DNA of 64,000 bases, taken from the NCBI GenBank assembly GCA_032430995.1, contig GCA_032430995.1_3952.1; one strand, 5' to 3'. Origin of the DNA: a phage. Below are positions 3,975-30,987 of the stretch, one piece after another; position 1 is the first letter of the stretch; the number at the start of each line of letters is the position of its first letter. A program made the position numbers and the translations under genes. The notes beneath the pieces were generated by a model that saw only the letters and a program-made list of their open reading frames with translations, had not been told where the DNA came from and made no database searches.

Positions 3975-4523
3975 ATGAAGAAATTGATTCTAGGTTTGTG
4001 CTTAATGTTTACAGCACACTTATCTTATGCAGTTGACTGCCCAGAGCTATCAATTAGCCAAAAAGTAAACATGTTAAAAGCTTACCAGTATGGTGAGAAT
4101 AACATGGGTAAAGGTTGGGGTATCACTCTAGCAGCTATAGCCTTACAAGAGTCAGAGTTAGGTCTGAAGGTAGAAAATAAAAAGACCCATGACTACGGTA
4201 TCTTCCAGAATCACTTGAAGACTGTTGTAAAGCGTAACAAAATTAGTCCTAATGTTGCTAAAAAGAAACTCTTAAAAGATTTTGACTATGCCGCAAAAGA
4301 AACACATAAAGAGCTTGAGTTTTGGACGAAGGTGCATGGTCACCCAAAGTCAAAGAAGACTTTACAAAAAGTTTTAGCATCATATAATGCTGGGTATTCG
4401 TACAGAATCCCTAAAGCTAAGAAATATTCTCAAGATGTCTATAACAACATGAAAGTTATTGCTCAATGTGAATTTGCAACAAACATTTCTAAGGTAAACC
4501 ATGAAAAAATTAAAAAAGTCTGA
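3975..4523 (+). CDS. secreted lytic transglycosylase-like protein (SLT domain)
   Basis: N-terminal signal peptide; ALQESELG ... DYGIFQ resembles the SLT catalytic-Glu motif. Confidence 0.5.
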   Translation: MKKLILGLCLMFTAHLSYAVDCPELSISQKVNMLKAYQYGENNMGKGWGITLAAIALQESELGLKVENKKTHDYGIFQNHLKTVVKRNKISPNVAKKKLLKDFDYAAKETHKELEFWTKVHGHPKSKKTLQKVLASYNAGYSYRIPKAKKYSQDVYNNMKVIAQCEFATNISKVNHEKIKKV

Positions 4524-7523: not shown

Positions 7524-8309
7524 ATGGGTATTGTAAAAATAATTAATGGTGATATCTTTGCCGCATTTGATAAAGGTAAGTTTGACATCATCGGTCACGG
7601 TTGCAACTGTATGAACTTAATGGGTGCAGGTATCGCTGACAAGATTTCTAAACTTTACCCAAAAGCGTATGAGACCGATACAGAAGTTTATCTGTATGCA
7701 GGTGGTATAGGTCACAAACCCTGTGAAAATTTACTAGGTAATTTCTCTGTAGCACGTTTAAAACAAGGTCGTATAGCTAATCTTTACACTCAGCTTAAGA
7801 CTGGTAAAGATGCCCGATACAGTGCTTTAGAGTCATCTTTGAAACAGCTTAACAGATACTGTGAAGTTAACCAGTTGAAGAAAGTTGGTTTACCTATGAT
7901 TGGTGCAGGTATTGGTGGGCTGGACCCTCAAGCTGTCACAGTTATCATCAATCAGGTGATGAAGAGTGTAGATGTTTATCTGTATGTCTATGAAGGCGAG
8001 ATGTACCACAAGTTACGCTCAGGTTGGAAGAACTACTGTGAACCAGAATACTTTGCAGGTGTAGCAGTGTTCACGGATAACGCAGTTACCCTCTTCAGAC
8101 GAAGAAAAGGTAAGATACATCAAAGTAACCCTCCGGTTGAAAAGATGTCTCTAGGTAATGCTCTAGTTACCCACCTGTCGAAGAGCAATCACAGAATGGC
8201 TGTGACATTTGGTAGTGATGCAGAAGCTTATATCTATGCAAGAACTGATGAGGATATCGAGGCAATCTTCTCTTCACCAGAAGTTACCTTCTTAGACGCA
8301 AAGAACTAA
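7524..8309 (+). CDS. macro-domain protein (ADP-ribose binding/processing)
   Basis: N-terminus IINGDIFAAFDKGKFDIIGHGCNCMNLMGAGIADKI resembles the macro-domain Gly-rich core. Confidence 0.55.
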   Translation: MGIVKIINGDIFAAFDKGKFDIIGHGCNCMNLMGAGIADKISKLYPKAYETDTEVYLYAGGIGHKPCENLLGNFSVARLKQGRIANLYTQLKTGKDARYSALESSLKQLNRYCEVNQLKKVGLPMIGAGIGGLDPQAVTVIINQVMKSVDVYLYVYEGEMYHKLRSGWKNYCEPEYFAGVAVFTDNAVTLFRRRKGKIHQSNPPVEKMSLGNALVTHLSKSNHRMAVTFGSDAEAYIYARTDEDIEAIFSSPEVTFLDAKN

Positions 8310-23901: not shown

Positions 23902-25317
23902 ATGAGCGAATTATTTAAACATGCGCACCTTCATGCAGGTCGAACTGAAAATGGTGCTGTAAACCATACTTCATCAATGTCTGCTCTTGTAGACTTTTAC
24001 AAAGCTGCTGGTTCAAGCCGTAGCAACGTAGAAATCTTACCAGACCTGTTCTACAAAGCTTTGCGTGAGGATGTTGATGTTGCAGTTCGTATTTTGCTTC
24101 ATATGCGAGATGTACGAGAAGGTATGGGTGAGCGTAAAGCCTTCAGAACTGTTTTGCTTCAAGCAATTGAAGATAAAGTTTTAGAGCCTACACAGGTTCT
24201 TCGCATTATGGATAAGATTGCAGAACTTGGTCGTTTTGATGACTTCAAAATCTTCGTGGGTACTTGTTTCGAGACAGATGCCTTCAAACATTTAGAAGCA
24301 GCATTACTAGACCCTGCAACAGCAGGTTTGGCGGCTAAGTGGTTACCACGAGTCAAACCACGTCATAAGCAGTTTGTAAAACGTTTCTGCAAGTTTGCCA
24401 ACTTGAGTGAGAAAGAGTACCGCACACTGTTGTCTGCACTATCTGATACAGTTGAGCAAAAAATCTCTGCTAATGAGTTTGGTAAGATTGACTACAGTAA
24501 GATTCCTTCACTTGCTGCTGCACGTTACCAAAAACTGTTTAACCGTAAAGATGGAGAGCGTTACAAAGCTTACATCGAGTCCTTATCAAAAGGTGAGACT
24601 AAGATTAGCGCTGGTGCTGTTTACCCATACGATGTGATTAAATCTGTCAAGCATGGTAATGCAGATGTTGCTAATGAGCAGTGGAAAGCACTACCAAACT
24701 GGATGGCAGAAGGTGAAAACATCTTGTGTATGTCTGATGTATCAAGTTCAATGTCTTGGGTGAATTTTGGCTCCATTACTGCTCTGGATATTGGTGTATC
24801 ACTTGCCTTGTATGTAGCAGAACGCAATACAGGTTGCTTTAAGAATGAGTTGATGGTTTATTCAACAAACCCTCACTTCATCGAACTGAGTGGTGATTTA
24901 CGAAACCGTCATCGTCAGGTGATGCGACACGTTGAATATGGCTCAACTAACTTACAAGCAGCTTTTGACCGCATTCTTGAGACAGGCAAAAGAAACAACT
25001 TGACTCAGAAAGATATGCCAAGTAAGCTTATCATCTTCTCCGATATGGAGTTTAATCAGGTTGATGGGGCTAACGGTCGTACAAACTTTGAAGCAATTCA
25101 GAGTAAGTACAAAAAAGCTGGATATGAGATGCCACAACTGGTATTCTGGTACTTAGCAAACCGTAATGGTACTTGCGAAGTATCTGTTAAGGATAACGGT
25201 GTAGCAATGGTATCAGGGTTCTCTCCAGCCACTTTAAAAGCTCTGCTTGGTGGTGAGAAGTTTGACCCAATCAGTGTAATGCTCAAAGCAGTAATGATTG
25301 ACCGTTATATCTGGTAA
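23902..25317 (+). CDS. Ro60/Rsr-like protein (TROVE-like N-domain plus vWA domain with MIDAS motif)
   Basis: 471 aa; MIDAS-like DVSSSM; C-terminal blocks (GSI, IIFSDMEF, VSGFSPATLKAL) resemble the Ro60 vWA region as recalled from memory. Confidence 0.45.
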   Translation: MSELFKHAHLHAGRTENGAVNHTSSMSALVDFYKAAGSSRSNVEILPDLFYKALREDVDVAVRILLHMRDVREGMGERKAFRTVLLQAIEDKVLEPTQVLRIMDKIAELGRFDDFKIFVGTCFETDAFKHLEAALLDPATAGLAAKWLPRVKPRHKQFVKRFCKFANLSEKEYRTLLSALSDTVEQKISANEFGKIDYSKIPSLAAARYQKLFNRKDGERYKAYIESLSKGETKISAGAVYPYDVIKSVKHGNADVANEQWKALPNWMAEGENILCMSDVSSSMSWVNFGSITALDIGVSLALYVAERNTGCFKNELMVYSTNPHFIELSGDLRNRHRQVMRHVEYGSTNLQAAFDRILETGKRNNLTQKDMPSKLIIFSDMEFNQVDGANGRTNFEAIQSKYKKAGYEMPQLVFWYLANRNGTCEVSVKDNGVAMVSGFSPATLKALLGGEKFDPISVMLKAVMIDRYIW

Positions 25318-25335: not shown

Positions 25336-25364
25336 TTGACAATGTGTTTAATACCCTTTAATAT
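25336..25364 (+). promoter_or_regulatory. sigma70-like promoter upstream of tRNA array
   Basis: TTGACA-17-TAATAT. Confidence 0.5.
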
Positions 25365-25481
25365 GTTCTACATAGAAACGAAATGAGAGCTTTTCTAAGA
25401 TACTGAAAAATATTTTAAAAAGTTCTTGACAACCACTAAAAAATAATGTTAAAGTGGTTACATAGAGTTTGAAAAGTTTAT

Positions 25482-25558
25482 CTCTGTTTAGCTCAGCTTG
25501 GTAGAGCGTTCCGTTTGGGGCGGTAAGGCCGGAGGTTCAAGTCCTCCAACAGAGACCA
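25482..25558 (+). tRNA. tRNA-Pro (anticodon TGG)
   Basis: hand-folded cloverleaf; acceptor CTCTGTT/AACAGAG; T-loop TTCAAGT; CCA encoded. Confidence 0.7.
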
Positions 25559-25565
25559 AATTAAT

Positions 25566-25643
25566 GTTCCAGTGGACAAAATGGTAAAGTCACCACTCTT
25601 TCAAAGTGGATATTTGAGGGTTCAAATCCCTTCTGGAACGCCA
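25566..25643 (+). tRNA. tRNA-Glu (anticodon TTC)
   Basis: acceptor GTTCCAG/CTGGAAC; anticodon stem CCACT/AGTGG; CCA encoded. Confidence 0.7.
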
Positions 25644-25733
25644 GTTTTGACAGAAGACCAATTACAGCAAACTTAATCTACTCATCTGAAAGTTAATCGG
25701 ACAAAGAAGATATTTGGTCTGGTCATTAAGAAT

Positions 25734-25810
25734 TGCGGGTATAGAGAAAGGGCGTCTCACATGTCTCATTAGCATGGTATCGGCAGGTTCGACTCCTGCA
25801 CCCGCCTCCA
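25734..25810 (+). tRNA. tRNA with CAT anticodon (Met or Ile-lysidine), atypical
   Basis: T-arm GCAGG-TTCGACT-CCTGC; anticodon loop CTCATTA; 1:72 mismatch and 3-bp D-stem. Confidence 0.45.
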
Positions 25811-25893
25811 AATTTACAGAAGACCGTTTACAGCAATATTTATTAAATTTTTAGCGGAAAAATTGAAAGATACGGTCTGGTAATACTAAACAT

Positions 25894-25970
25894 GGTTAGG
25901 AAGCACATAAGGTATGTGCGGTCGCCTGTTAAGCGAATGGCACAGGGTTCGAATCCCTGACTAACCGCCA
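25894..25970 (+). tRNA. tRNA-Asn (anticodon GTT)
   Basis: T-arm CAGGG-TTCGAAT-CCCTG; anticodon loop CTGTTAA. Confidence 0.6.
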
Positions 25971-26039
25971 AATTTAGGAGAGAAGCGATTGCTCACCGAT
26001 TTGTAAGGTGCAAGTCCTTAGCCTGAATAGAAATCAAAT

Positions 26040-26127
26040 GTGTCGTTATCCCGTAGATGGTAGCGGTGGGGACTGTAAATCCCTTGTCATTGAGACTCGG
26101 TAGGTTCGACTCCTACACGGCACACCA
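26040..26127 (+). tRNA. tRNA-Tyr (anticodon GTA), class II
   Basis: long variable arm; anticodon loop CTGTAAA; T-arm GTAGG-TTCGACT-CCTAC. Confidence 0.65.
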
Positions 26128-26133
26128 AATAAA

Positions 26134-26211
26134 GGTTATGTAGTTTAATCTGGTTAAAATACTCCCCTGTCACGGGAGATGATGAGGGTTCAAATCCCTT
26201 CGTAACCGCCA
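26134..26211 (+). tRNA. tRNA-Asp (anticodon GTC)
   Basis: anticodon stem CTCCC/GGGAG, loop CTGTCAC. Confidence 0.7.
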
Positions 26212-26359
26212 ATTTTGAGAGGGCTATTTAGCCCCTCCCTTAAAGGGTTCTTACGAGTATTCTTTAAAGGAGCAGAAGACCAAATACAGCAAGTTATTTA
26301 AAATTTCAAGCCAATTTAATTTTGAAAAATTTAAAACTTGGTCTGGCTCAACAAATTTA

Positions 26360-26491
26360 CAGAAGACCGTTTACAGCAAAACTTAAACAATCTATTTCTC
26401 CGGTAAAGAAAAGGCGAAGGTTCGATTCCTTCACTCGGCAGATGTCGAGTTGGTGTAATGGTAGCACTTAAGATGATAAACAACGGTCTGG
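26360..26491 (+). ncRNA. candidate structured RNA with orphan tRNA-like T-arm (Y-RNA/YrlA-like hypothesis)
   Basis: flanked by AGACCGT / ACGGTCT arms; contains GAAGG-TTCGATT-CCTTC T-arm (26416-26432) without a full cloverleaf. Confidence 0.3.
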
Positions 26492-26640
26492 TAATTATCT
26501 TTGTAGATAAGTTATTAAGCTTACCTGTGAGTATGCGACCACAAAGGGTGAAAGGGTAAATTCTAGATTTAAACCCAAAAAGGCACATCGCTACAGACCT
26601 TAAGCAAGTCTGGGTAGCTTATCTACAAAGATAATTTAAT

Positions 26641-26716
26641 GGAAGTGTAGCAGAATGGTGATGCGGCAGACTTTTAATCTGACAGGCGATGGGTTCGAAT
26701 CCCTCCACTTCTACCA
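26641..26716 (+). tRNA. tRNA-Lys (anticodon TTT)
   Basis: acceptor GGAAGTG/CACTTCT; anticodon loop CTTTTAA; weak T-stem. Confidence 0.55.
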
Positions 26717-26794
26717 AATTCACCCTTAACTGAGAAACACCTGCGCGGCTGGAAACACCCACTCAACAGTTTCTCTAACTAGGGTACTTATTCT

Positions 26795-26871
26795 GGTTCA
26801 GTCGCAGATAAGGTAATGCAAGGGTCTCATAAGCCCTATGAATGTGGGTTCGATTCCCATCTGAACCTCCA
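26795..26871 (+). tRNA. tRNA-Met (anticodon CAT)
   Basis: acceptor GGTTCAG/CTGAACC; anticodon stem AGGGT/GCCCT, loop CTCATAA. Confidence 0.65.
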
Positions 26872-26872
26872 A

Positions 26873-26948
26873 GCTGGTATAGTTAAGAAGGTTATAACAC
26901 TCCCCTGATAAGGGAACATCGGTGGTTCGATTCCACCTACCAGTACCA
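26873..26948 (+). tRNA. tRNA-Ile (anticodon GAT)
   Basis: T-arm GGTGG-TTCGATT-CCACC; anticodon loop CTGATAA. Confidence 0.65.
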
Positions 26949-26963
26949 ATTTCAATAAAGTTG

Positions 26964-26992
26964 TTGACATTGAGATGTGACTACTTTATAGT
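26964..26992 (+). promoter_or_regulatory. internal sigma70-like promoter within tRNA array
   Basis: TTGACA-17-TATAGT. Confidence 0.55.
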
Positions 26993-27194
26993 AACCTTAG
27001 TTTTCGTTGCGTAGCGTCTATTTTGCAAATTTAAAATAAATGCAAACGACAATGTTTTTCTGGCAGTAGCTTGATAGGCTAAACACCAGTGAGGTCTTCC
27101 AATCCCTCATCAAAGAATTTGGCGTACTCGCCCACGGTATGATTAATAAGGTGGGCATCTTTAAGGGCTTTCTAAGAGAGTCTTTAAAGATAAT

Positions 27195-27271
27195 GCACCC
27201 TTAGTTCAATTGGATAGAGCAACGGTCTTCTAAATCGTTAGTTACAGGTTCGAATCCTGTAGGGTGTACCA
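27195..27271 (+). tRNA. tRNA-Arg (anticodon TCT)
   Basis: D-arm GTTCAATTGGATAGAGC; anticodon loop CTTCTAA; T-arm ACAGG-TTCGAAT-CCTGT. Confidence 0.7.
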
Positions 27272-27413
27272 AATAGTTAGCAGATTACTTAGACGGCCTT
27301 AGCGGGTCTTCCTGTAGGGAGGTGGTCTGTATCTCATGTTTTCCAGAACATGTAAATAATCTGAGAAGGAGCTTGACAGTGTTGAGATAACAGGGTAAGC
27401 TTCGAATTATAAT

Positions 27414-27496
27414 ATGGGACGATGTTAAGACTCTAAGGCATGAGCAACGGCCTCCAAAACCGTTTCAAAGGGGTTCAACTCCTCCGTCCCATGCCA
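27414..27496 (+). tRNA. tRNA-like gene, possible Trp (anticodon CCA), atypical D region
   Basis: acceptor ATGGGAC/GTCCCAT; loop CTCCAAA; D region about 6 nt longer than canonical. Confidence 0.35.
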
Positions 27497-27509
27497 AAGT
27501 CTTATTAGG

Positions 27510-27597
27510 GGTAGGTAGCGGCTAATGGTAGCCAAACTGTCTTGAAAACAGTTGCCACTGTAGAGATACGGTGAGGGTTCGACTCCTTTACTTACCG
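27510..27597 (+). tRNA. tRNA-Ser (anticodon TGA), class II
   Basis: anticodon stem ACTGT/ACAGT, loop CTTGAAA; long variable arm; no CCA encoded. Confidence 0.65.
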
Positions 27598-27853
27598 CCT
27601 AATAAGATTTACTCCGTCCATGCTTGTTCGCATTGTCGGTTTATCCCTCGTGTATTGTCGTACACTGTCAAAGCACCTAGTAGGTGTCACGGAGAAGAGA
27701 TAATATCAAGCTCTCCAAAGGTTCTAGTCACCGGATTAAACAAGACTATGCAAAGACCTATTTAGGTCTTTTTAGAGGGCTTCTAAGGTTATTAGTCGCT
27801 TGTTGTGGAACCTTGTTGCTTAGGTTCTTAGAAGTTCTCTAAAAAGATTTAAT

Positions 27854-27931
27854 GGGAGATTGACGGTAATTGGTAAACCTACCATCCTTAGAAGTTGGTG
27901 TTTGAGGGTTCGAATCCCTTGTCTCCTACCA
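27854..27931 (+). tRNA. tRNA-like gene, anticodon uncertain (best fold gives TAG)
   Basis: acceptor GGGAGAT/GTCTCCT; T-arm GAGGG-TTCGAAT-CCCTT; anticodon stem has a mismatch. Confidence 0.4.
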
Positions 27932-27938
27932 AATTAAT

Positions 27939-28014
27939 GCAGGTGTAGCAAAATGGTTATGCGGCTGACTCTTAATCAGTAAGACGATGGGTTCAATTCC
28001 CTCCACCTGTACCA
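27939..28014 (+). tRNA. tRNA-Lys (anticodon CTT)
   Basis: anticodon stem GCTGA/TCAGT, loop CTCTTAA; T-arm similar to Lys(TTT) copy. Confidence 0.5.
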
Positions 28015-28020
28015 AACATT

Positions 28021-28096
28021 GGGGATGTAGTTTACATGGTTAAAACATAAGTTTTGCAAACTTAAGTACAGGGTTCAATTCCCTGCTTCTCCACCA
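28021..28096 (+). tRNA. tRNA-Ala (anticodon TGC)
   Basis: D-stem GTTT/AAAC; anticodon stem TAAGT/ACTTA, loop TTTGCAA. Confidence 0.6.
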
Positions 28097-28102
28097 ATTA
28101 GT

Positions 28103-28177
28103 GCATCCATAGTTTAAACGGGAAAATTACAGTCTTCCAAACTGAGGTTGAGGGTTCGATTCCCTCTGGATGCTCCA
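28103..28177 (+). tRNA. tRNA-Gly (anticodon TCC)
   Basis: acceptor GCATCCA/TGGATGC; loop CTTCCAA; T-arm GAGGG-TTCGATT-CCCTC. Confidence 0.65.
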
Positions 28178-28183
28178 AACAAT

Positions 28184-28260
28184 GCTGCTTTCGTATAATT
28201 GGCTATTACACATCCCTTGTAAGGATGGAAATGCAGGTTCGAGTCCTGTGAGCAGCACCA
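28184..28260 (+). tRNA. tRNA-Thr (anticodon TGT)
   Basis: anticodon stem CATCC/GGATG, loop CTTGTAA. Confidence 0.7.
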
Positions 28261-28356
28261 ATTCAGAGGTCAAGTGAAAGACCGCTTTGAGTCAACTGAA
28301 GACCGTAACAAATACCACGGAGTTGAGTTAGCGGCACAACTTCAGACCTCTTTCAT

Positions 28357-28431
28357 ACTCGCTTAGTTTATATGGTAAAACATCACCCTTACAAGATGAA
28401 GAAAAAGGTTCAAGTCCTTTAGTGAGTACCA
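28357..28431 (+). tRNA. tRNA-Val (anticodon TAC)
   Basis: T-arm AAAGG-TTCAAGT-CCTTT; loop CTTACAA. Confidence 0.6.
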
Positions 28432-28432
28432 T

Positions 28433-28510
28433 GTTCCAGTATCCCAATTGGCAGAGGATGCAAGCTCAAACCTTGTATTAGTGACGGTTCGAATCCGTCT
28501 TGGAACACCA
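28433..28510 (+). tRNA. tRNA with CAA anticodon (Leu-reading), short variable arm
   Basis: anticodon stem GCAAG/CTTGT, loop CTCAAAC; T-arm GACGG-TTCGAAT-CCGTC; 75 nt. Confidence 0.5.
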
Positions 28511-28515
28511 ATTTT

Positions 28516-28591
28516 GCAGGATTAGTTCAAATGGAAAGAGCAACAGTCTACGAAGCTGTTAATAGGGGTTCGAATCCCTTATCCTGCGCCA
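28516..28591 (+). tRNA. tRNA-Arg (anticodon ACG)
   Basis: perfect acceptor GCAGGAT/ATCCTGC; loop CTACGAA. Confidence 0.75.
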
Positions 28592-28608
28592 GATAAAAAG
28601 GTGATACT

Positions 28609-28851
28609 ATGCAAACATTAACAGTAGTTGAACATGAAAACTGTGAGAGTATTGAGTTTGTCAGGGTCATTGGTGTTGAACACCACATTTTCTTAAAAGT
28701 GGGATACTTATGCGACCCCGCTAGAGTAGAAAGATTTATACGTGATTGTTTTGGTGGTAGACATCTGAAGAGTGTTATTTTTGAGACAGTTTTACCAGAA
28801 GGTTTAGAAACGAATAATAACATTTACCTCCTTACGAGGATTAGACAATGA
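28609..28851 (+). CDS. hypothetical protein embedded in tRNA array
   Basis: 80-aa ORF with AAAGGTGA RBS. Confidence 0.5.
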   Translation: MQTLTVVEHENCESIEFVRVIGVEHHIFLKVGYLCDPARVERFIRDCFGGRHLKSVIFETVLPEGLETNNNIYLLTRIRQ

Positions 28852-29405
28852 GATACTTAAAGTATGCTTCATGGATTTTCTTAGCTTTGTTAGAGCCATT
28901 TGCAGCAATCTTAGCAGTTATCTTAGCACCTTTTGTAGTTCCATTCTACAGTGAGAAGAAAGGACACTTACCTTTCGGGTTCAGATGGATGGAGACATAT
29001 GACAACCCAATTGATGGTGATGAAGGTCACGTTAAAAGATGGGCTAATATTAGATGGGTTGGTAAACTAGGTGTCTACATGCAAAGAGTCGGATGGCTCT
29101 GGAGAAACAAAGCTTATAACTTCTCTTACCATGTATTAGGAAGAGATGTAAGAGATGTTACTAAGTGGAAAGGTAATATCAACGTAAGTTCTAACCCTGA
29201 AGATAATCAGACTGGTTATCTCCTAATGTGGAACAGTAATGCTTGGGGATTATTCGCTTTTATCCCATCAATTAAAGTCTTCGGTAAACAGTTTTACTGG
29301 AGAATTTATGTTGGATGGAAACTTAAAAGTGTTGTCCCAGAAGAAAGAGCATTCTCAAGGGAAAGAGTTATGTTGGCATTCTTTATTCATCCACTGAGAA
29401 AGTAA
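28848..29405 (+). CDS. hypothetical membrane protein (Trp-rich) embedded in tRNA array
   Basis: 185 aa; N-terminal hydrophobic helix; ATGA start/stop overlap. Confidence 0.5.
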   Translation: MRYLKYASWIFLALLEPFAAILAVILAPFVVPFYSEKKGHLPFGFRWMETYDNPIDGDEGHVKRWANIRWVGKLGVYMQRVGWLWRNKAYNFSYHVLGRDVRDVTKWKGNINVSSNPEDNQTGYLLMWNSNAWGLFAFIPSIKVFGKQFYWRIYVGWKLKSVVPEERAFSRERVMLAFFIHPLRK

Positions 29406-29413
29406 AGATTTAA

Positions 29414-29489
29414 AGGGGATTAGTTTACAAGGTTAAAACCTCGGTCTTTGAAATCGAAGAAGTTGGTTCAATTCCAACATCCCCCGCCA
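29414..29489 (+). tRNA. tRNA-Gln (anticodon TTG)
   Basis: loop CTTTGAA; unpaired 1:72 (A:C); T-arm GTTGG-TTCAATT-CCAAC. Confidence 0.6.
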
Positions 29490-29491
29490 AT

Positions 29492-29570
29492 GCTCCATTA
29501 CTCCAATTGGCAGAGAGGCCAGACTTAAAATCTGTGTTATGTATCGGTTCGAATCCGATATGGAGTACCA
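29492..29570 (+). tRNA. tRNA with TAA anticodon (Leu-reading), short variable arm
   Basis: loop CTTAAAA; D-arm homologous to the 28433 tRNA. Confidence 0.5.
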
Positions 29571-29575
29571 AATTT

Positions 29576-29651
29576 AGCGGTATAGCATAACTGGCAATGC
29601 AGCAGTCTCTGAAGCTGTCCTATTAAGGTTCAAATCCTTATGCCGCTGCCA
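29576..29651 (+). tRNA. tRNA-Gln (anticodon CTG)
   Basis: acceptor AGCGGTA/TGCCGCT; D-stem GCA/TGC; loop CTCTGAA. Confidence 0.5.
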
Positions 29652-29682
29652 CTTCTAAGGATTCTTACGAGAGTCCTTAAAT

Positions 29683-29758
29683 GTGGCCTTATCATAAATG
29701 GTAATGACCCATGCTGTGAACATGGTCTATACGGGTTCAAATCCCGTAGGTCACCCCA
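29683..29758 (+). tRNA. tRNA-His (anticodon GTG)
   Basis: anticodon stem CCATG/CATGG, loop CTGTGAA; discriminator C; no encoded G-1. Confidence 0.7.
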
Positions 29759-29763
29759 ATTTA

Positions 29764-29840
29764 TAGTCCAAGTAGCTTATATGGTTAAAGCGCGTGTCTG
29801 AAAAACATGAGAAGAGGGTTCAAATCCCACTGGACTACCA
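29764..29840 (+). tRNA. tRNA-Phe (anticodon GAA), boundaries uncertain
   Basis: anticodon stem CGTGT/ACATG, loop CTGAAAA; acceptor register ambiguous. Confidence 0.5.
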
Positions 29841-29856
29841 ATTTCAAAGGTGCTTA

Positions 29857-30591
29857 ATGAAAGAGATGACAGAACAAGGTAAGGAGATTTTCAATCTCTT
29901 AAAAACCGGTAAAGGGTTTTCTAACCCCCTTATTACTGGTGCAGCAGTTCTCGGTGGAACCGTAGCTGCCTCTACATCACTTGTAAGCTCTATTAGCTCT
30001 GTATCAGACCCTACAGTAAAGGATAAGCTTGTTGCTGCTGGACTTACAACAGTTCTGCTTAACAGCTTTACCACGAGTCTGACAAGCACTACATCAACCA
30101 CCAAAACACTAACAGATTACGGTCAAAAGTCCATTGATGAGTTTTCATCACGTATGCAGGTAGCAAAAGGTTACTCTAATGTTATGGGTGCAGCAGGTGA
30201 ACAAGTTGGCTGTACACCATTTAGTGGTATTATGGGTGTTGCTACAGAGTATGGTCAAAAAGCTATTGATACGATTAACAGTGCACTAGACGGTGTTAAT
30301 GGTGTGTTAAGTGACTTACAAGACGCTATTGACAAAGGTCTTGATACTATTTCTGATTTAGCTAACCAAGCTGTTAGTAAGATTAATGAAGGTATCTCAA
30401 AGATTACAGCTTATGCAGATGAAGTTGTGCAGATGATTGAAGAAGAAGCTGCTCTTATTGCAGAGTACCTTAAAACGAATATCAATGGGTTCTTAGCAGG
30501 TATCTTACCAGACTGGTTTGATGATGCTTGTAAAACTGGTGTAATTGACACTATTGCAACACCAGAAATGAAGAGCGCATTACAGAAATAA
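29857..30591 (+). CDS. hypothetical Ser/Thr-rich protein
   Basis: track ORF 29794..30591 trimmed to ATG 29857 (MKEMTEQ) because the 5' extension overlaps tRNA-Phe. Confidence 0.5.
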   Translation: MKEMTEQGKEIFNLLKTGKGFSNPLITGAAVLGGTVAASTSLVSSISSVSDPTVKDKLVAAGLTTVLLNSFTTSLTSTTSTTKTLTDYGQKSIDEFSSRMQVAKGYSNVMGAAGEQVGCTPFSGIMGVATEYGQKAIDTINSALDGVNGVLSDLQDAIDKGLDTISDLANQAVSKINEGISKITAYADEVVQMIEEEAALIAEYLKTNINGFLAGILPDWFDDACKTGVIDTIATPEMKSALQK

Positions 30592-30592
30592 T

Positions 30593-30685
30593 GGAAGATT
30601 AACCCTAAAAGGTAAGGGAGCAGTTTGCTAAACTGCCAGTAGCTGAGAAATCGGTGTACCAGTTCAAGTCTGGTATCTTCCTCCA
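30593..30685 (+). tRNA. tRNA-Ser (anticodon GCT), class II
   Basis: perfect acceptor GGAAGAT/ATCTTCC; anticodon stem GCAGT/ACTGC, loop TTGCTAA; long variable arm. Confidence 0.7.
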
Positions 30686-30689
30686 ATTT

Positions 30690-30765
30690 GAATCCGTGAC
30701 AGAAATGGCTATGTACCTGTCTGCAAAACAGGTTTATAAGGGTTCGAGTCCCTTCGGATTCTCCA
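30690..30765 (+). tRNA. tRNA-Cys (anticodon GCA)
   Basis: perfect acceptor GAATCCG/CGGATTC; anticodon stem CCTGT/ACAGG, loop CTGCAAA. Confidence 0.75.
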
Positions 30766-30862: not shown

Positions 30863-30987
30863 ACAGAGTTATACTTTATAAGAAGACTTATACAGTATGT
30901 CTCTGACGTACATTGTGGTTTCTCCTTGACGGTCTCTGTACCGTCTTTTTTAAGGGGAAACATGGTTAAATATTTGGAGAAAACATA

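What the first reader, a model, noticed from the sequence alone, without database searches (positions are those of the whole stretch)
25482..30765. Large tRNA array (about 27 genes) with several atypical members
Hand folding gives tRNAs for roughly 19 amino acids within about 5.3 kb, with two internal promoters and embedded protein genes. Oddities: two Leu-reading tRNAs (CAA, TAA) apparently lacking the long variable arm, several with a 27:43 mismatch, one with an extended D region (27414-27496), one with an unclear anticodon (27854-27931), and His without encoded G-1. Large phage tRNA sets are increasingly interpreted as resistance to host anticodon nucleases and translation shutoff as well as codon compensation.
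Basis: partly seen in the sequence, partly recalled or inferred. Interest (0 to 1): 0.5.

Follow-up and report, generated by a model that had tools for sequence, protein, structure and literature searches.

The report
Felix O1-type phage tRNA operon

Summary
ARAGORN plus-strand tRNA genes at 25482-30765, for 19 amino acids. The window is 97% identical to published Felixounavirus genomes that annotate the same 26 genes.

The flagged oddities are real:
- All three Leu tRNAs (UAG, CAA, UAA), not two, lack the long variable arm. They keep every E. coli LeuRS identity element tested.
- The "unclear anticodon" gene is Leu(UAG).
- tRNA-His has U, not G, at position -1.
- 27414-27496 is a conserved tRNA-like RNA with anticodon CCA, an 8-bp acceptor stem and a 4-bp T stem. 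It was not annotated as a tRNA in any of the 30 phage records listed (236 carry it). It is mutually exclusive with a canonical tRNA-Trp.

Codon usage fits codon compensation. The anti-nuclease role was not tested.

Outside the finding:
- The upstream gene is a Ro60-like protein, already reported for phage Bas63.
- Four spacers encode Y-RNA-like modules, one with a YrlA-type permuted tRNA domain.
- Another spacer encodes a tmRNA-like RNA (tag ANDNVFLAVA) with no acceptor stem, shared with four other phage groups.

The array itself is ordinary. Its atypical members and spacer RNAs are under-described.

The parts
23902..25317 (+). Ro60-like (DUF2828/DUF7788, vWA) protein gene just upstream of the array
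   Evidence: Pfam. PHROG 'RNA-binding protein'. AF2 model pLDDT 88. Foldseek top 7 PDB hits are all full-length Ro60/TROVE proteins, E 2e-8 to 8e-7. The Bas63 gp130 homologue is reported as Ro60-like and as a counter to the Ppl defence system.
25336..25364 (+). promoter-like site TTGACA-17-TAATAT
   Evidence: consensus match only
25426..25455 (+). promoter-like site TTGACA-18-TAAAGT with TG
   Evidence: consensus match only
25482..25558 (+). tRNA-Pro(UGG)
25566..25643 (+). tRNA-Glu(UUC)
25648..25725 (+). Y-RNA-like module A (UGAC-AGA-AGACCAAU-UACAGCAA ... AUUGGUCU-G-GUCA)
25734..25810 (+). tRNA with anticodon CAU; atypical (U1.C72, U73, loop CUCAUUA)
   Evidence: ARAGORN only. No Rfam match even at E<=10. 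Conserved in Sf17 and the Erwinia phage.
25814..25883 (+). Y-RNA-like module B
25894..25970 (+). tRNA-Asn(GUU)
26040..26127 (+). tRNA-Tyr(GUA), class II with long arm
   Evidence: Below the Rfam tRNA gathering score.
26134..26211 (+). tRNA-Asp(GUC)
26270..26349 (+). Y-RNA-like module C
26357..26494 (+). Y-RNA-like module D with a circularly permuted tRNA domain. Order: long variable-like hairpin, T arm GAAGG-UUCGAUU-CCUUC, closed acceptor stem ACUCGGC-AGAU-GUCGAGU, D arm GUGU-AAUGGUA-GCAC.
   Evidence: The acceptor hairpin covaries (ACUCGGC/GUCGAGU versus ACACG/CGUGU in L013, L019 and L033). Same architecture as YrlA. Homologous modules in L042 and mycobacteriophage Nicholas reach E 1e-5 to 7e-5 against Rfam YrlA.
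26641..26716 (+). tRNA-Lys(UUU)
26717..26794 (+). conserved spacer hairpin with core CUGCGCGGCUGGAAACACCCACUC
   Evidence: Shared with Yersinia phage P778 and a T5-like phage. 6 of 17 pairs are compensatory.
26795..26871 (+). tRNA with anticodon CAU (U73)
26873..26948 (+). tRNA-Ile(GAU)
26964..26992 (+). internal promoter-like site TTGACA-17-TATAGT (11 of 12)
26998..27157 (+). tmRNA-like RNA without acceptor stem. Order: D-loop-like UAGUUUUCG; resume codon GCA at 27042; tag ANDNVFLAVA with stop at 27072-27074; pseudoknot-type stems; terminal hairpin 27130-27156.
   Evidence: ARAGORN calls no tmRNA.
27195..27271 (+). tRNA-Arg(UCU)
27414..27496 (+). Unannotated 8/4-type tRNA-like RNA, anticodon CCA. 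It has an 8-bp acceptor, the linker AUGUUAAGA, a 3-bp D stem, a 5-bp anticodon stem with a 9-nt loop CCUCCAAAA, a 4-bp T stem, G73 and CCA.
   Evidence: All 142 cells pair and 7 pairs are compensatory. Mutually exclusive with canonical tRNA-Trp in 31 arrays.
27510..27599 (+). tRNA-Ser(UGA), class II, 3' end CCT instead of CCA
   Evidence: The homologue lets REP phages grow on Syn61-delta-3.
27854..27931 (+). tRNA-Leu(UAG), short variable loop, U.U at 30:40
27939..28014 (+). tRNA-Lys(CUU)
28021..28096 (+). tRNA-Ala(UGC), G3.U70
28103..28177 (+). tRNA-Gly(UCC)
28184..28260 (+). tRNA-Thr(UGU)
28261..28356 (+). conserved long spacer hairpin
   Evidence: 82% identical to a T5-like phage spacer. Folds, but shows no compensatory pairs in 3 sequences.
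28357..28431 (+). tRNA-Val(UAC)
28433..28510 (+). tRNA-Leu(CAA), short variable loop
28516..28591 (+). tRNA-Arg(ACG)
28609..28851 (+). embedded ORF, 80 aa, phrog_14202, function unknown
28848..29405 (+). embedded ORF, 185 aa, DUF7338
29414..29489 (+). tRNA-Gln(UUG), A1.C72, G73
29492..29570 (+). tRNA-Leu(UAA), 7-nt variable loop, G1.U72, A73
   Evidence: Compared with E. coli leuZ.
29576..29651 (+). tRNA-Gln(CUG)
29683..29758 (+). tRNA-His(GUG), G1-C72, C73, T at -1 (29682), so no encoded G-1
29765..29840 (+). tRNA-Phe(GAA), irregular acceptor/T junction
29857..30591 (+). embedded ORF, 244 aa, DUF7217
30593..30685 (+). tRNA-Ser(GCU), class II
30690..30765 (+). tRNA-Cys(GCA)
30928..30953 (+). 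terminator-like hairpin plus T run after the array

Best explanation
The region is the tRNA operon of a Felixounavirus (Felix O1/wV8 type). It holds 26 standard-length tRNA genes plus one unannotated 8/4-type CCA tRNA-like gene. All are on one strand.

Inferred mechanism:
- Transcription starts at sigma-70-like promoters at about 25336 and 25426, and again at 26964.
- Host RNase P and 3' nucleases cut the transcripts into tRNAs. CCA is already encoded in 25 of 26 genes.
- The set supplies decoders, mostly U34 tRNAs, for the A/U-ending codons that this 39% G+C phage uses far more than E. coli. It also makes late translation less dependent on the host tRNA pool.

The atypical members are functional variants, not decay products.
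- The three Leu tRNAs have lost only the long variable arm, which E. coli LeuRS does not need. They keep A73, A14, A15-U48, G18G19 and A20a, so they should be leucylated by the host enzyme.
- The 8/4 CCA RNA most likely serves as the phage's tRNA-Trp.
- tRNA-His is made without G-1. It is either a poor HisRS substrate or relies on C73 and the anticodon.

Shown here: gene content, structures, conservation, covariation and the codon match. Inferred: transcription, processing, charging and physiological role.
For: - Twenty-six ARAGORN calls and 24 Rfam calls. The same 26 genes are annotated in RefSeq relatives at 95-97% identity.
- The codon enrichment matches the tRNA set.
- Seventeen short-arm Leu tRNAs came from at least 8 phage lineages: Felixounavirus, Mooglevirus, Kolesnikvirus, Yersinia P778, Vibrio phi-pp2, a T5-like phage, a 143-kb phage and Enterococcus EFGrKN. 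All have 7 of 7 acceptor pairs with 3-6 pair types per position, A73 in 17 of 17, and a D loop AAUUGG(C/U)A matching E. coli leuZ and a long-arm phage Leu tRNA. U48 is present in 16 of 17.
- A review states that E. coli LeuRS needs A73, A15-U48, G18G19 and A20a but not the variable arm, and that arm-less variants stay active.
- 8/4 CCA RNA: 100% of 142 cells pair, against 35-53% when partners are slid. Seven pairs show compensatory changes across Felixounavirus, Mooglevirus, Yersinia and Pectobacterium phages.
- The 8/4 RNA has G73, A1-U72 and the anticodon CCA.
- Of 31 arrays, 25 have the 8/4 RNA only, 4 have a canonical Trp only, none has both and 2 have neither.
- Felixounavirus REP phages use the array's tRNA-Ser(UGA) to grow on cells that lack the host genes.
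Against: - No expression, processing or charging data exist for this phage.
- Bas63 tRNA genes were mostly dispensable on four laboratory strains.
- E. coli LeuRS failed to charge the short-arm tRNA-Leu(CAA) of Streptomyces coelicolor, so an arm-less tRNA is not automatically a substrate.
- Bacterial HisRS identity rests on G-1 and C73, and the gene has T at -1.
- The 8/4 RNA has a 9-nt anticodon loop (or an unpaired 31:39), a 9-nt insertion before the D stem, and fails ARAGORN and the Rfam threshold.
- A -10-like TATAAT sits immediately 5' of the 8/4 RNA.
- Promoter-like sites are not enriched over shuffles.
- The E. coli codon frequencies came from memory.
Confidence: 0.85

Rival explanations
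1. The array exists mainly as an anti-defence device. Phage tRNAs replace host tRNAs that are cleaved by anticodon nucleases or retron/PARIS-type effectors. The odd structures (no variable arm, no G-1, 8/4 shape, 27:43 mismatches) are escapes from nuclease recognition.
For: - Published work shows phage tRNAs evading tRNA-targeting defences.
- Felixounavirus phages largely escape retron Eco2, which cleaves tRNAs.
- Bas63 tRNAs are dispensable on defence-poor laboratory strains.
- The structural departures are conserved across lineages.
Against: - The tRNA set tracks phage codon bias closely, which a pure defence role does not predict.
- No nuclease is known to read the Leu variable arm or His G-1.
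- Nothing in the sequence tests this idea.
- It is compatible with the main explanation rather than exclusive of it.
Confidence: 0.3
2. The atypical members are degenerating pseudogenes carried along in a recombining array. This would cover the arm-less Leu tRNAs, His without G-1, the 27414 RNA, Met-CAU 25734 and Phe.
For: - The array clearly recombines through T arms. L010 fuses module D to tRNA-Lys, and L040 fuses Asn to Tyr.
- RefSeq flags Tyr, Asp, Leu-UAG, His and Cys of phage Si3 as tRNA-OTHER/pseudo.
- The 27414 RNA and Met-CAU 25734 fail the Rfam model.
Against: - Compensatory substitutions maintain every helix of the Leu tRNAs and of the 27414 RNA across lineages whose Ro-like proteins are only 45-63% identical.
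- LeuRS identity elements are invariant.
- The 27414 RNA alternates with a canonical Trp gene and never co-occurs with it.
Confidence: 0.07
3. Some odd tRNA-like genes, especially the 27414 RNA and tRNA-His without G-1, are not translation adaptors. They would be ligands, decoys or regulators, for example partners of the neighbouring Ro60-like protein, as the Bas63 authors guessed for 'some tRNA genes'.
For: - The Ro60-like gene abuts the array.
- Y RNAs mimic tRNAs.
- Irregular 8/4 tRNAs can be charged yet not used in translation.
- The 27414 RNA has a 9-nt anticodon loop.
Against: - Better Y-RNA candidates exist in the spacers. They carry the family motif UACAGCAA, and the 27414 RNA lacks it.
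- Pectobacterium phage Arno18 carries the 27414 RNA, and no Ro-like gene is annotated in the 7-kb stretch fetched.
- The 27414 RNA has G73-CCA and alternates with canonical Trp.
Confidence: 0.15

Closest known systems
tRNA gene clusters of Felix O1/wV8-type phages (Ounavirinae) and of T5-like phages
   Same: - Same genes in the same order at 95-97% identity.
- One strand, encoded CCA, small ORFs and homing-endonuclease cassettes interspersed.
- Two spacer hairpins and a short-arm Leu(UAG) are shared with a T5-like phage.
   Different: Nothing essential at the level of the array. Public annotations omit the 27414 RNA and every spacer RNA.
Short-arm (type I) tRNA-Leu of animal mitochondria and Streptomyces coelicolor
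   Same: A Leu anticodon with a 5-7 nt variable loop, coexisting with a LeuRS that normally sees long-arm tRNAs.
   Different: - The phage tRNAs keep the E. coli class II D arm (3-bp stem, AAUUGGYAGA loop), A73 and often G1.U72, as in leuZ.
- In S. coelicolor A73 is not an identity element, and E. coli LeuRS does not charge that tRNA.
- A 2023 review states that Leu tRNAs have the long arm everywhere except animal mitochondria. The phage cases therefore seem not to be widely recognised.
8/4 tRNAs (Mukai et al. 2017, PMC5389517)
   Same: An 8-bp acceptor plus a 4-bp T stem gives the standard 12-bp branch. These tRNAs occur in phage tRNA clusters, and some have one bulged nucleotide, as do the Yersinia and Pectobacterium versions here.
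   Different: - The reported 8/4 species are Ser, His, Cys/Sec and allo-tRNAs with long variable arms. None has anticodon CCA.
- This RNA has a short variable loop, a conserved 9-nt insertion AUGUUAAGA before the D stem, and a 9-nt anticodon loop.
Bacterial and phage Y RNAs (YrlA/YrlB) with Ro60/Rsr
   Same: - They are encoded next to a Ro60-fold protein.
- A 5'/3' terminal stem is interrupted by an internal loop.
- One RNA per locus carries a T arm, closed acceptor stem and D arm in permuted order.
- Homologous modules in other phages hit Rfam YrlA at E about 1e-5.
   Different: - The conserved single-stranded motif is (U)UACAGCAA after the 5' strand, not GNCGAAN0-1G or CGAA.
- The window copies do not hit Rfam YrlA.
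- The protein is DUF2828-type, with no sequence-level match to solved Ro60 proteins.
- There are four copies, interleaved with tRNA genes.
tmRNA (ssrA), including two-piece and phage forms
   Same: - The upstream box AUAAAU is followed by resume codon GCA.
- A 10-residue tag starts AND and ends in a hydrophobic Ala-rich tail.
- The stop codon sits in a hairpin loop, followed by pseudoknot-type stems.
- The 5' UAGUUUUCG resembles the tmRNA D-loop region.
- A full phage tmRNA called by ARAGORN also ends its tag in LAVA.
   Different: - No acceptor stem, T arm or CCA.
- About 160 nt long.
- Scores are below every Rfam tmRNA threshold (15-29 bits) and ARAGORN makes no call.
- The phage tmRNAs catalogued in 2014 were complete or TLD-only, never the reverse.

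Membership tests
Canonical bacterial-type tRNA genes | Cloverleaf with a 7-bp acceptor and 5-bp T stem, found by a tRNA finder and a covariance model | tested here: met
   26 by ARAGORN and 24 above the Rfam gathering score. Met-CAU 25734 and Tyr are found by ARAGORN only.
E. coli-type tRNA-Leu identity | Discriminator A73 | tested here: met
   All three window genes have A73, as do 17 of 17 short-arm phage Leu tRNAs.
E. coli-type tRNA-Leu identity | D-loop elements A14, A15 (with U48), G18G19 and A20a | tested here: met
   The D loop AAUUGG(C/U)A is present in all 17. U is the last variable-loop base in 16 of 17. It matches E. coli leuZ GAAUCGGUAGA. The element list comes from the review read.
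E. coli-type tRNA-Leu identity | Long variable arm (class II architecture; typical, but not an identity element for E. coli LeuRS) | tested here: not met
   The variable loops are 5, 6 and 7 nt, against about 14-15 nt in leuZ and in an N4-like phage Leu tRNA.
E. coli-type tRNA-Leu identity | Leucylation by host LeuRS | not testable with these tools
   This needs an in vitro charging assay or acid-gel northern blots.
Bacterial tRNA-His | Genome-encoded G-1 opposite C73 | tested here: not met
   Position -1 is T in the window and in all Felixounavirus and Mooglevirus loci except L020, where it is A. It is also T in L040, Yersinia P778 and Vibrio phi-pp2. It is G in the Erwinia and Enterococcus phages.
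Bacterial tRNA-His | C73 and anticodon GUG | tested here: met
8/4 tRNAs | 8-bp acceptor stem stacked on a 4-bp T stem (12-bp branch) | tested here: met
   For 27414-27496, all 8+4 pairs form in 7 of 7 distinct sequences, with 2 acceptor pairs compensatory. The T stem never varies, so it gives no covariation evidence.
Bacterial tRNA-Trp identity (applied to 27414-27496) | Anticodon CCA, G73, A1-U72 | tested here: inconclusive
   CCA follows U33 in every variant. G73 is invariant. Pair 1:72 is A-U, G.U or G-C. The loop is 9 nt because 31:39 is C.A or C.C. The RNA alternates with canonical Trp genes. Charging was not tested.
Y RNA / YrlA | Encoded beside a Ro60-fold protein gene | tested here: met
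   The modules lie 330-1180 nt downstream of 23902-25317, whose model matches Ro60 structures. The same linkage is seen in L033, L040, L041, L042, L043, L045, L046 and L047.
Y RNA / YrlA | Terminal stem formed by the 5' and 3' ends, with an internal loop and a conserved protein-binding motif | tested here: met
   97.4% of cells pair, and 8 of 11 pairs are compensatory in 14 modules, against 18-45% when slid. I chose the module ends partly by their pairing. The motif is UACAGCAA, not GNCGAA.
Y RNA / YrlA | tRNA-like domain: T arm, closed acceptor stem, D arm | tested here: met
   Module D, 26357-26494. Modules A-C lack it, as YrlB does.
Y RNA / YrlA | Match to Rfam RF02553 at its gathering score | tested here: not met
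   There is no YrlA match on the window modules at E<=10. Homologues in L042 and L047 reach 41 and 38 bits against a gathering score of 69.
Y RNA / YrlA | Physical binding to the Ro60-like protein | not testable with these tools
   This needs a pull-down or EMSA.
tmRNA | Tag reading frame with a resume codon, and a stop codon in a hairpin loop | tested here: met
   GCA at 27042 to UGA at 27074 gives ANDNVFLAVA. The frame is conserved in five other phage groups.
tmRNA | tRNA-like domain: acceptor stem with G3.U70, T arm, 3' CCA | tested here: not met
   No such domain lies within or next to the element in the window, Vi01, Klebsiella or S5 loci. A hairpin with the loop GAUUAAUAA sits where the T arm would be.
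tmRNA | Rfam or ARAGORN call | tested here: not met
   Scores are 15.7-29.2 bits against a gathering score of 47. ARAGORN makes no call.

The most novel reading that the evidence does not exclude
The 'tRNA array' may be a wider phage RNA toolbox whose unannotated parts are functional.

1. A tmRNA-like RNA without an acceptor stem carries a conserved tag frame, AN(D/E)xx(F/Y)LAVA. It has spread horizontally among at least five phage groups that infect Enterobacterales: Ounavirinae including Kolesnikvirus, Ackermannviridae, an unclassified 46-kb Klebsiella phage, and an N4-like phage. It could interfere with or re-route host trans-translation. It might titrate SmpB or S1, or act as the coding piece of a two-piece tmRNA whose partner has not been found.
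2. Four Y RNAs with a UACAGCAA motif would be the partners of the Ro60-like anti-Ppl protein.
3. An 8/4 CCA tRNA would be the working tRNA-Trp of more than 200 sequenced phages.
Probability: 0.35. Interest if true: 0.75.

Novelty: new member of a known kind. Interest (0 to 1): 0.45.

Why it matters
The array itself adds nothing new. It is annotated in hundreds of genomes, and one of its tRNAs is already known to defeat a recoded E. coli.

Three things would matter if confirmed.

1. Short-arm Leu tRNAs with intact E. coli LeuRS identity elements occur in at least eight phage lineages. This contradicts the textbook statement that only animal mitochondria lack the Leu long arm. It also gives a natural test of what the arm is for.
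2. Standard tRNA annotation appears to miss a conserved 8/4 CCA tRNA and to mislabel others. This distorts counts of phage tRNA repertoires and codon-compensation statistics.
3. The spacers offer concrete, testable RNA partners for the Ro60-like protein that counters the Ppl defence. They also reveal a tmRNA-derived RNA of unknown role shared across phage families.

Tried and rejected
- **Rfam on the window:** At the gathering score and at E<=10, Rfam gave no named family in the window spacers beyond weak tmRNA and tmRNA_permuted hits. The only YrlA hit in the window, 29704-29826 at 17 bits, overlaps His and Phe and is chance.
- **Ro-like protein by sequence:** Sequence and profile searches of the Ro-like protein against PDB chains found nothing. 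NCBIfam also found nothing. Only the fold search worked.
- **tRNA-like domain for the tmRNA-like RNA:** I looked for the complement of the Klebsiella 5' GGCGGAU, for T-arm motifs, and for ARAGORN -m calls. None was found. The tmRNA_permuted alignment borrows the T arm of tRNA-Ile and is partly an artefact.
- **8/4 reparse of other tRNAs:** I tested whether tRNA-His or tRNA-Phe could be reparsed as 8/4. His is a plain 7/5. Phe only has mismatches at 7:66 and in the T stem (reading).
- **Promoter at 27382-27410:** It is weak and would start transcription inside the 27414 RNA, so I do not count it as established.
- **Alignment register:** The MAFFT alignment of the Leu tRNAs put five sequences out of register. 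I replaced it with position-based parsing.
- **Papers not held:** The Nyerges et al. paper with tRNA sequencing of a REP phage and the Sim et al. review were not in the library.
- **Module register:** L042 modules have different bulge sizes and were left out of the formal stem count.
- **Identity of the two CAU tRNAs:** Whether each is Met, Ile2 or something else could not be settled. AUA is rare in the phage, at 3.1 per 1000 codons.

Full report
**Identity of the region.** The 5.6 kb around the finding is 94-97% identical over its whole length to more than 200 Felixounavirus genomes, including Escherichia phages Ro111lw, typing phage 1 and wV8. The RefSeq record of typing phage 1 annotates the same 26 tRNA genes in the same order. 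They are flanked upstream by an 'RNA-binding protein' and downstream by the large terminase. Shigella phage Sf17 (Mooglevirus) has the same 26 by tRNAscan-SE. The array as such is a known, annotated feature.

**Checking the observation.** ARAGORN finds 26 plus-strand genes between 25482 and 30765, for 19 amino acids with Trp missing.
- Rfam's tRNA model passes threshold for 24. It misses the class II Tyr and the first CAU tRNA, 25734-25810, which has no Rfam match even at E<=10.
- Twenty-five genes encode CCA. Ser(UGA) ends CCT.
- Three ORFs sit inside the array.
- One strong promoter-like site lies inside it, at 26964-26992. The second candidate is weak, and promoter-like sites as a class are not enriched over shuffles.
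27:43 is non-Watson-Crick in five tRNAs, and the base before tRNA-His is T, not G.
- The 'unclear' gene at 27854 is Leu(UAG). Relatives keep the loop CUUAGAA while the stem changes from CCAUC/GUUGG to UCUCG/CGAGA or CCUCG/CGAGG.

**Leu tRNAs.** All three Leu genes, not two, have variable loops of 5-7 nt. I collected 17 distinct short-arm Leu tRNAs from at least eight phage lineages: Felixounavirus, Mooglevirus, Kolesnikvirus, Yersinia phage P778, Vibrio phage phi-pp2, a T5-like phage, a 143-kb phage and Enterococcus phage EFGrKN.
- Every one forms 7 of 7 acceptor pairs, with three to six pair types per position.
- All have A73 and the D loop AAUUGG(C/U)A. Sixteen have U at the last variable-loop position.
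- The window's Leu(UAA) shares the first three features and differs only in the arm.
- A 2023 review records that E. coli LeuRS depends on A73, A15-U48, G18G19 and A20a and not on the arm, and that arm-less variants remain active.
- The same review says Leu tRNAs have the long arm everywhere except animal mitochondria. A 2019 paper reports a short-arm Leu tRNA in Streptomyces that E. coli LeuRS does not charge.

I infer that the phage tRNAs are charged by host LeuRS. This is not shown.

**tRNA-His.** The gene is a regular 7/5 tRNA with G1-C72, C73 and anticodon GUG. Position -1 is T in almost all Felixounavirus and Mooglevirus loci (A in L020), and also T in the L040 lineage, Yersinia P778 and Vibrio phi-pp2. 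It is G in the Erwinia and Enterococcus phages. Bacterial HisRS identity rests on G-1 and C73. How this tRNA is charged is therefore open.

**The 27th gene.** 27414-27496 is found in 236 phage records. None of the 30 records listed annotates it as a tRNA. Seven distinct versions from Felixounavirus, Mooglevirus, Yersinia and Pectobacterium phages fit one structure:
- an 8-bp acceptor stem;
- a conserved linker AUGUUAAGA;
- a 3-4 bp D stem with GG in its loop;
- a 5-bp anticodon stem closing a 9-nt loop N(C/U)UCCAANN;
- a 5-nt variable loop;
- a 4-bp T stem;
- G73 and CCA.

All 142 cells pair, against 35-53% when partners are slid. Seven pairs show compensatory changes. The T stem itself never varies. 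The 8+4 geometry is that of the 8/4 tRNAs described for Ser, His and Cys/Sec, some of them in phages. No CCA species was reported there. Among 31 arrays, 25 carry this RNA only, 4 carry a canonical tRNA-Trp(CCA) only (wV8-type phages at the same site together with an HNH endonuclease, plus the Erwinia phage and L042), none carries both and 2 carry neither. The best reading is that this RNA is the phage's Trp decoder. The enlarged loop leaves room for another role.

**Function of the array.** In 54 ORFs of the window (14,308 codons), the codons most over-used relative to E. coli mostly have a cognate phage tRNA: AGA 8.9x, ACA 3.6x, AAG 3.0x, UCA 2.8x, CUA 2.5x, GUA 2.0x. The codons the phage avoids have none. 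The E. coli values were recalled, not fetched. Felixounavirus REP phages infect a recoded E. coli lacking serT and serU through their tRNA-Ser(UGA), which shows that the array is expressed and used. Bas63 tRNA genes were mostly dispensable on laboratory strains. The anti-nuclease idea comes from the literature and was not tested here.

**Upstream gene.** The 471-aa protein at 23902-25317 (DUF2828/DUF7788) has no sequence-level match to solved structures. Its AlphaFold model (pLDDT 88) matches full-length Ro60 proteins as the top seven PDB hits. These include Xenopus Ro60, D. radiodurans Rsr and the Thermus phage phiLo Ro60. tblastn links it at 33% identity to the mycobacteriophage 'Ro-like RNA binding protein'. 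A 2024 preprint already reports that Bas63 gp130 resembles Ro60 and counters the Ppl defence. Its authors guess that some of the tRNA genes might be Y RNAs.

**Y-RNA-like modules.** Four spacers in the first 1.2 kb of the array carry the pattern AGAAGACC-NNN-UACAGCAA ... N'N'N'-GGUCUGG. It occurs 4 times in 64 kb, against 0.8 expected.
- Each module folds so that its ends pair, with an AGA/G internal loop and an outer 4-bp stem that covaries: UGAC/GUCA, UUAC/GUAA, GAGC/GCUC.
- In 14 modules from five lineages, 97.4% of cells pair and 8 of 11 pairs show compensatory changes. I picked the module ends partly by their pairing.
- The fourth module (26357-26494) contains a T arm, an acceptor stem closed by a loop, and a D arm, in that order. 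This is the YrlA architecture.
- Modules with the same (U)UACAGCAA motif lie next to the Ro-like gene in phages whose protein is only 34-63% identical. These are L040, Yersinia P778, a 143-kb phage, Vibrio phi-pp2, Cronobacter LPCS28, Campylobacter F374 and mycobacteriophage Nicholas.
- Two of these modules reach E about 1e-5 against Rfam YrlA.
- In the Erwinia phage locus, no Ro-like gene is annotated and the AGAAGACC pattern is absent.

These spacer modules, rather than the annotated tRNA genes, are the likely Y RNAs.

**tmRNA-like RNA.** Downstream of the promoter-like site at 26964 lies a 160-nt element (26998-27157).
- It contains AUAAAU-GCA-AAC-GAC..., reading ANDNVFLAVA-stop. This aligns with the tag region of Rfam tmRNA models at sub-threshold scores.
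- The same element, at 77-81% identity, occurs in Vi01 (ANDNTFLAVA), a Klebsiella phage (ANEEMYLAVA), an N4-like Salmonella phage (ANDDVVLMAA) and an Erwinia phage (ANDAQFLAVA).
- Nine of 27 consensus pairs show compensatory changes.
- It has no acceptor stem, T arm or CCA. ARAGORN calls no tmRNA.
- Phage tmRNAs catalogued in 2014 were complete or TLD-only.

Its role is unknown.

**Verdict.** The array is ordinary and already known. Its atypical members are conserved functional variants that are poorly described.

Noticed in passing
window 23902-25317: The gene just upstream of the array encodes a DUF2828/DUF7788 protein. Its predicted structure matches full-length Ro60/TROVE proteins. This was already noted for Bas63 gp130, an anti-Ppl factor.
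   Followed up: yes
window 25648-25725, 25814-25883, 26270-26349, 26357-26494: Four Y-RNA-like modules carry a covarying terminal stem and the conserved motif UACAGCAA. The fourth contains a circularly permuted tRNA domain of the YrlA type. The same motif accompanies Ro-like genes in eight other phage lineages examined, from Shigella phage Sf17 to a mycobacteriophage.
   Followed up: yes
window 26998-27157: A tmRNA-like RNA has a resume codon, the tag ANDNVFLAVA, pseudoknot-type stems and a terminal hairpin, but no acceptor stem, T arm or CCA. It is shared with Vi01, a Klebsiella phage, an N4-like phage and an Erwinia phage.
   Followed up: partly
window 26717-26794: A spacer hairpin with the invariant core CUGCGCGGCUGGAAACACCCACUC is conserved in Yersinia phage P778 and a T5-like phage. 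6 of 17 pairs are compensatory. Function unknown.
   Followed up: partly
window 28261-28356: A long spacer hairpin is 82% identical to a spacer in a T5-like phage. Three sequences show no compensatory changes.
   Followed up: partly
window 25734-25810 and 26795-26871: Both CAU-anticodon tRNAs have U73, where E. coli Met, fMet and Ile2 tRNAs have A73 (from memory). The first also has U1.C72 and the loop CUCAUUA, and no Rfam match. Their amino-acid identity is unresolved.
   Followed up: partly
window 29765-29840: tRNA-Phe(GAA) has an A.C mismatch at 7:66 and a weakened T stem. Comparable irregularities occur in the Sf17 and Erwinia phage versions.
   Followed up: partly
L010 around 3903; L040 6900-7057: Array genes recombine through their T arms. 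L010 fuses Y-like module D to the 3' part of tRNA-Lys. L040 fuses the 5' part of tRNA-Asn to the 3' part of tRNA-Tyr.
   Followed up: no
L009 and L017 around 4161-4231; L019: In wV8-type genomes the 8/4 CCA RNA is replaced by a canonical 71-nt tRNA-Trp together with an HNH endonuclease ORF. This looks like a homing-endonuclease cassette swap inside the array.
   Followed up: partly
L042 7213-7288; L034 3804-3874; L041 8009-8149: Other phages carry small tRNA-like RNAs that hit the tmRNA model. L042 reaches 31.6 bits, with acceptor GGGGUCG, G3.U70 and ACCA, so it is TLD-only. The window has no counterpart.
   Followed up: no
L040 about 7970-8055 (also L002, L003, L009): In some relatives tRNA-Arg(UCU) after the tmRNA-like RNA is replaced by an odd TCT-anticodon RNA (UACGGGGCG ... 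CUUCUAA ... GCCUCGACCA). It seems to lack a normal D arm.
   Followed up: no
L045 4895-5137 (Cronobacter phage LPCS28); L042 7563-7692: These tRNA-shaped RNAs have the anticodon arm replaced by a stem followed by UAUUCAGCA or UUACAGCA. This is a non-permuted version of the Y-like module.
   Followed up: no
window 26240-26272, 27160-27194, 29652-29680: Similar imperfect hairpins of the type CUUUAAAG...CUUUAAAG or UAAGGAUUCUUACGAGAGUCCUUA recur directly 5' of several tRNAs. They may be processing signals.
   Followed up: no
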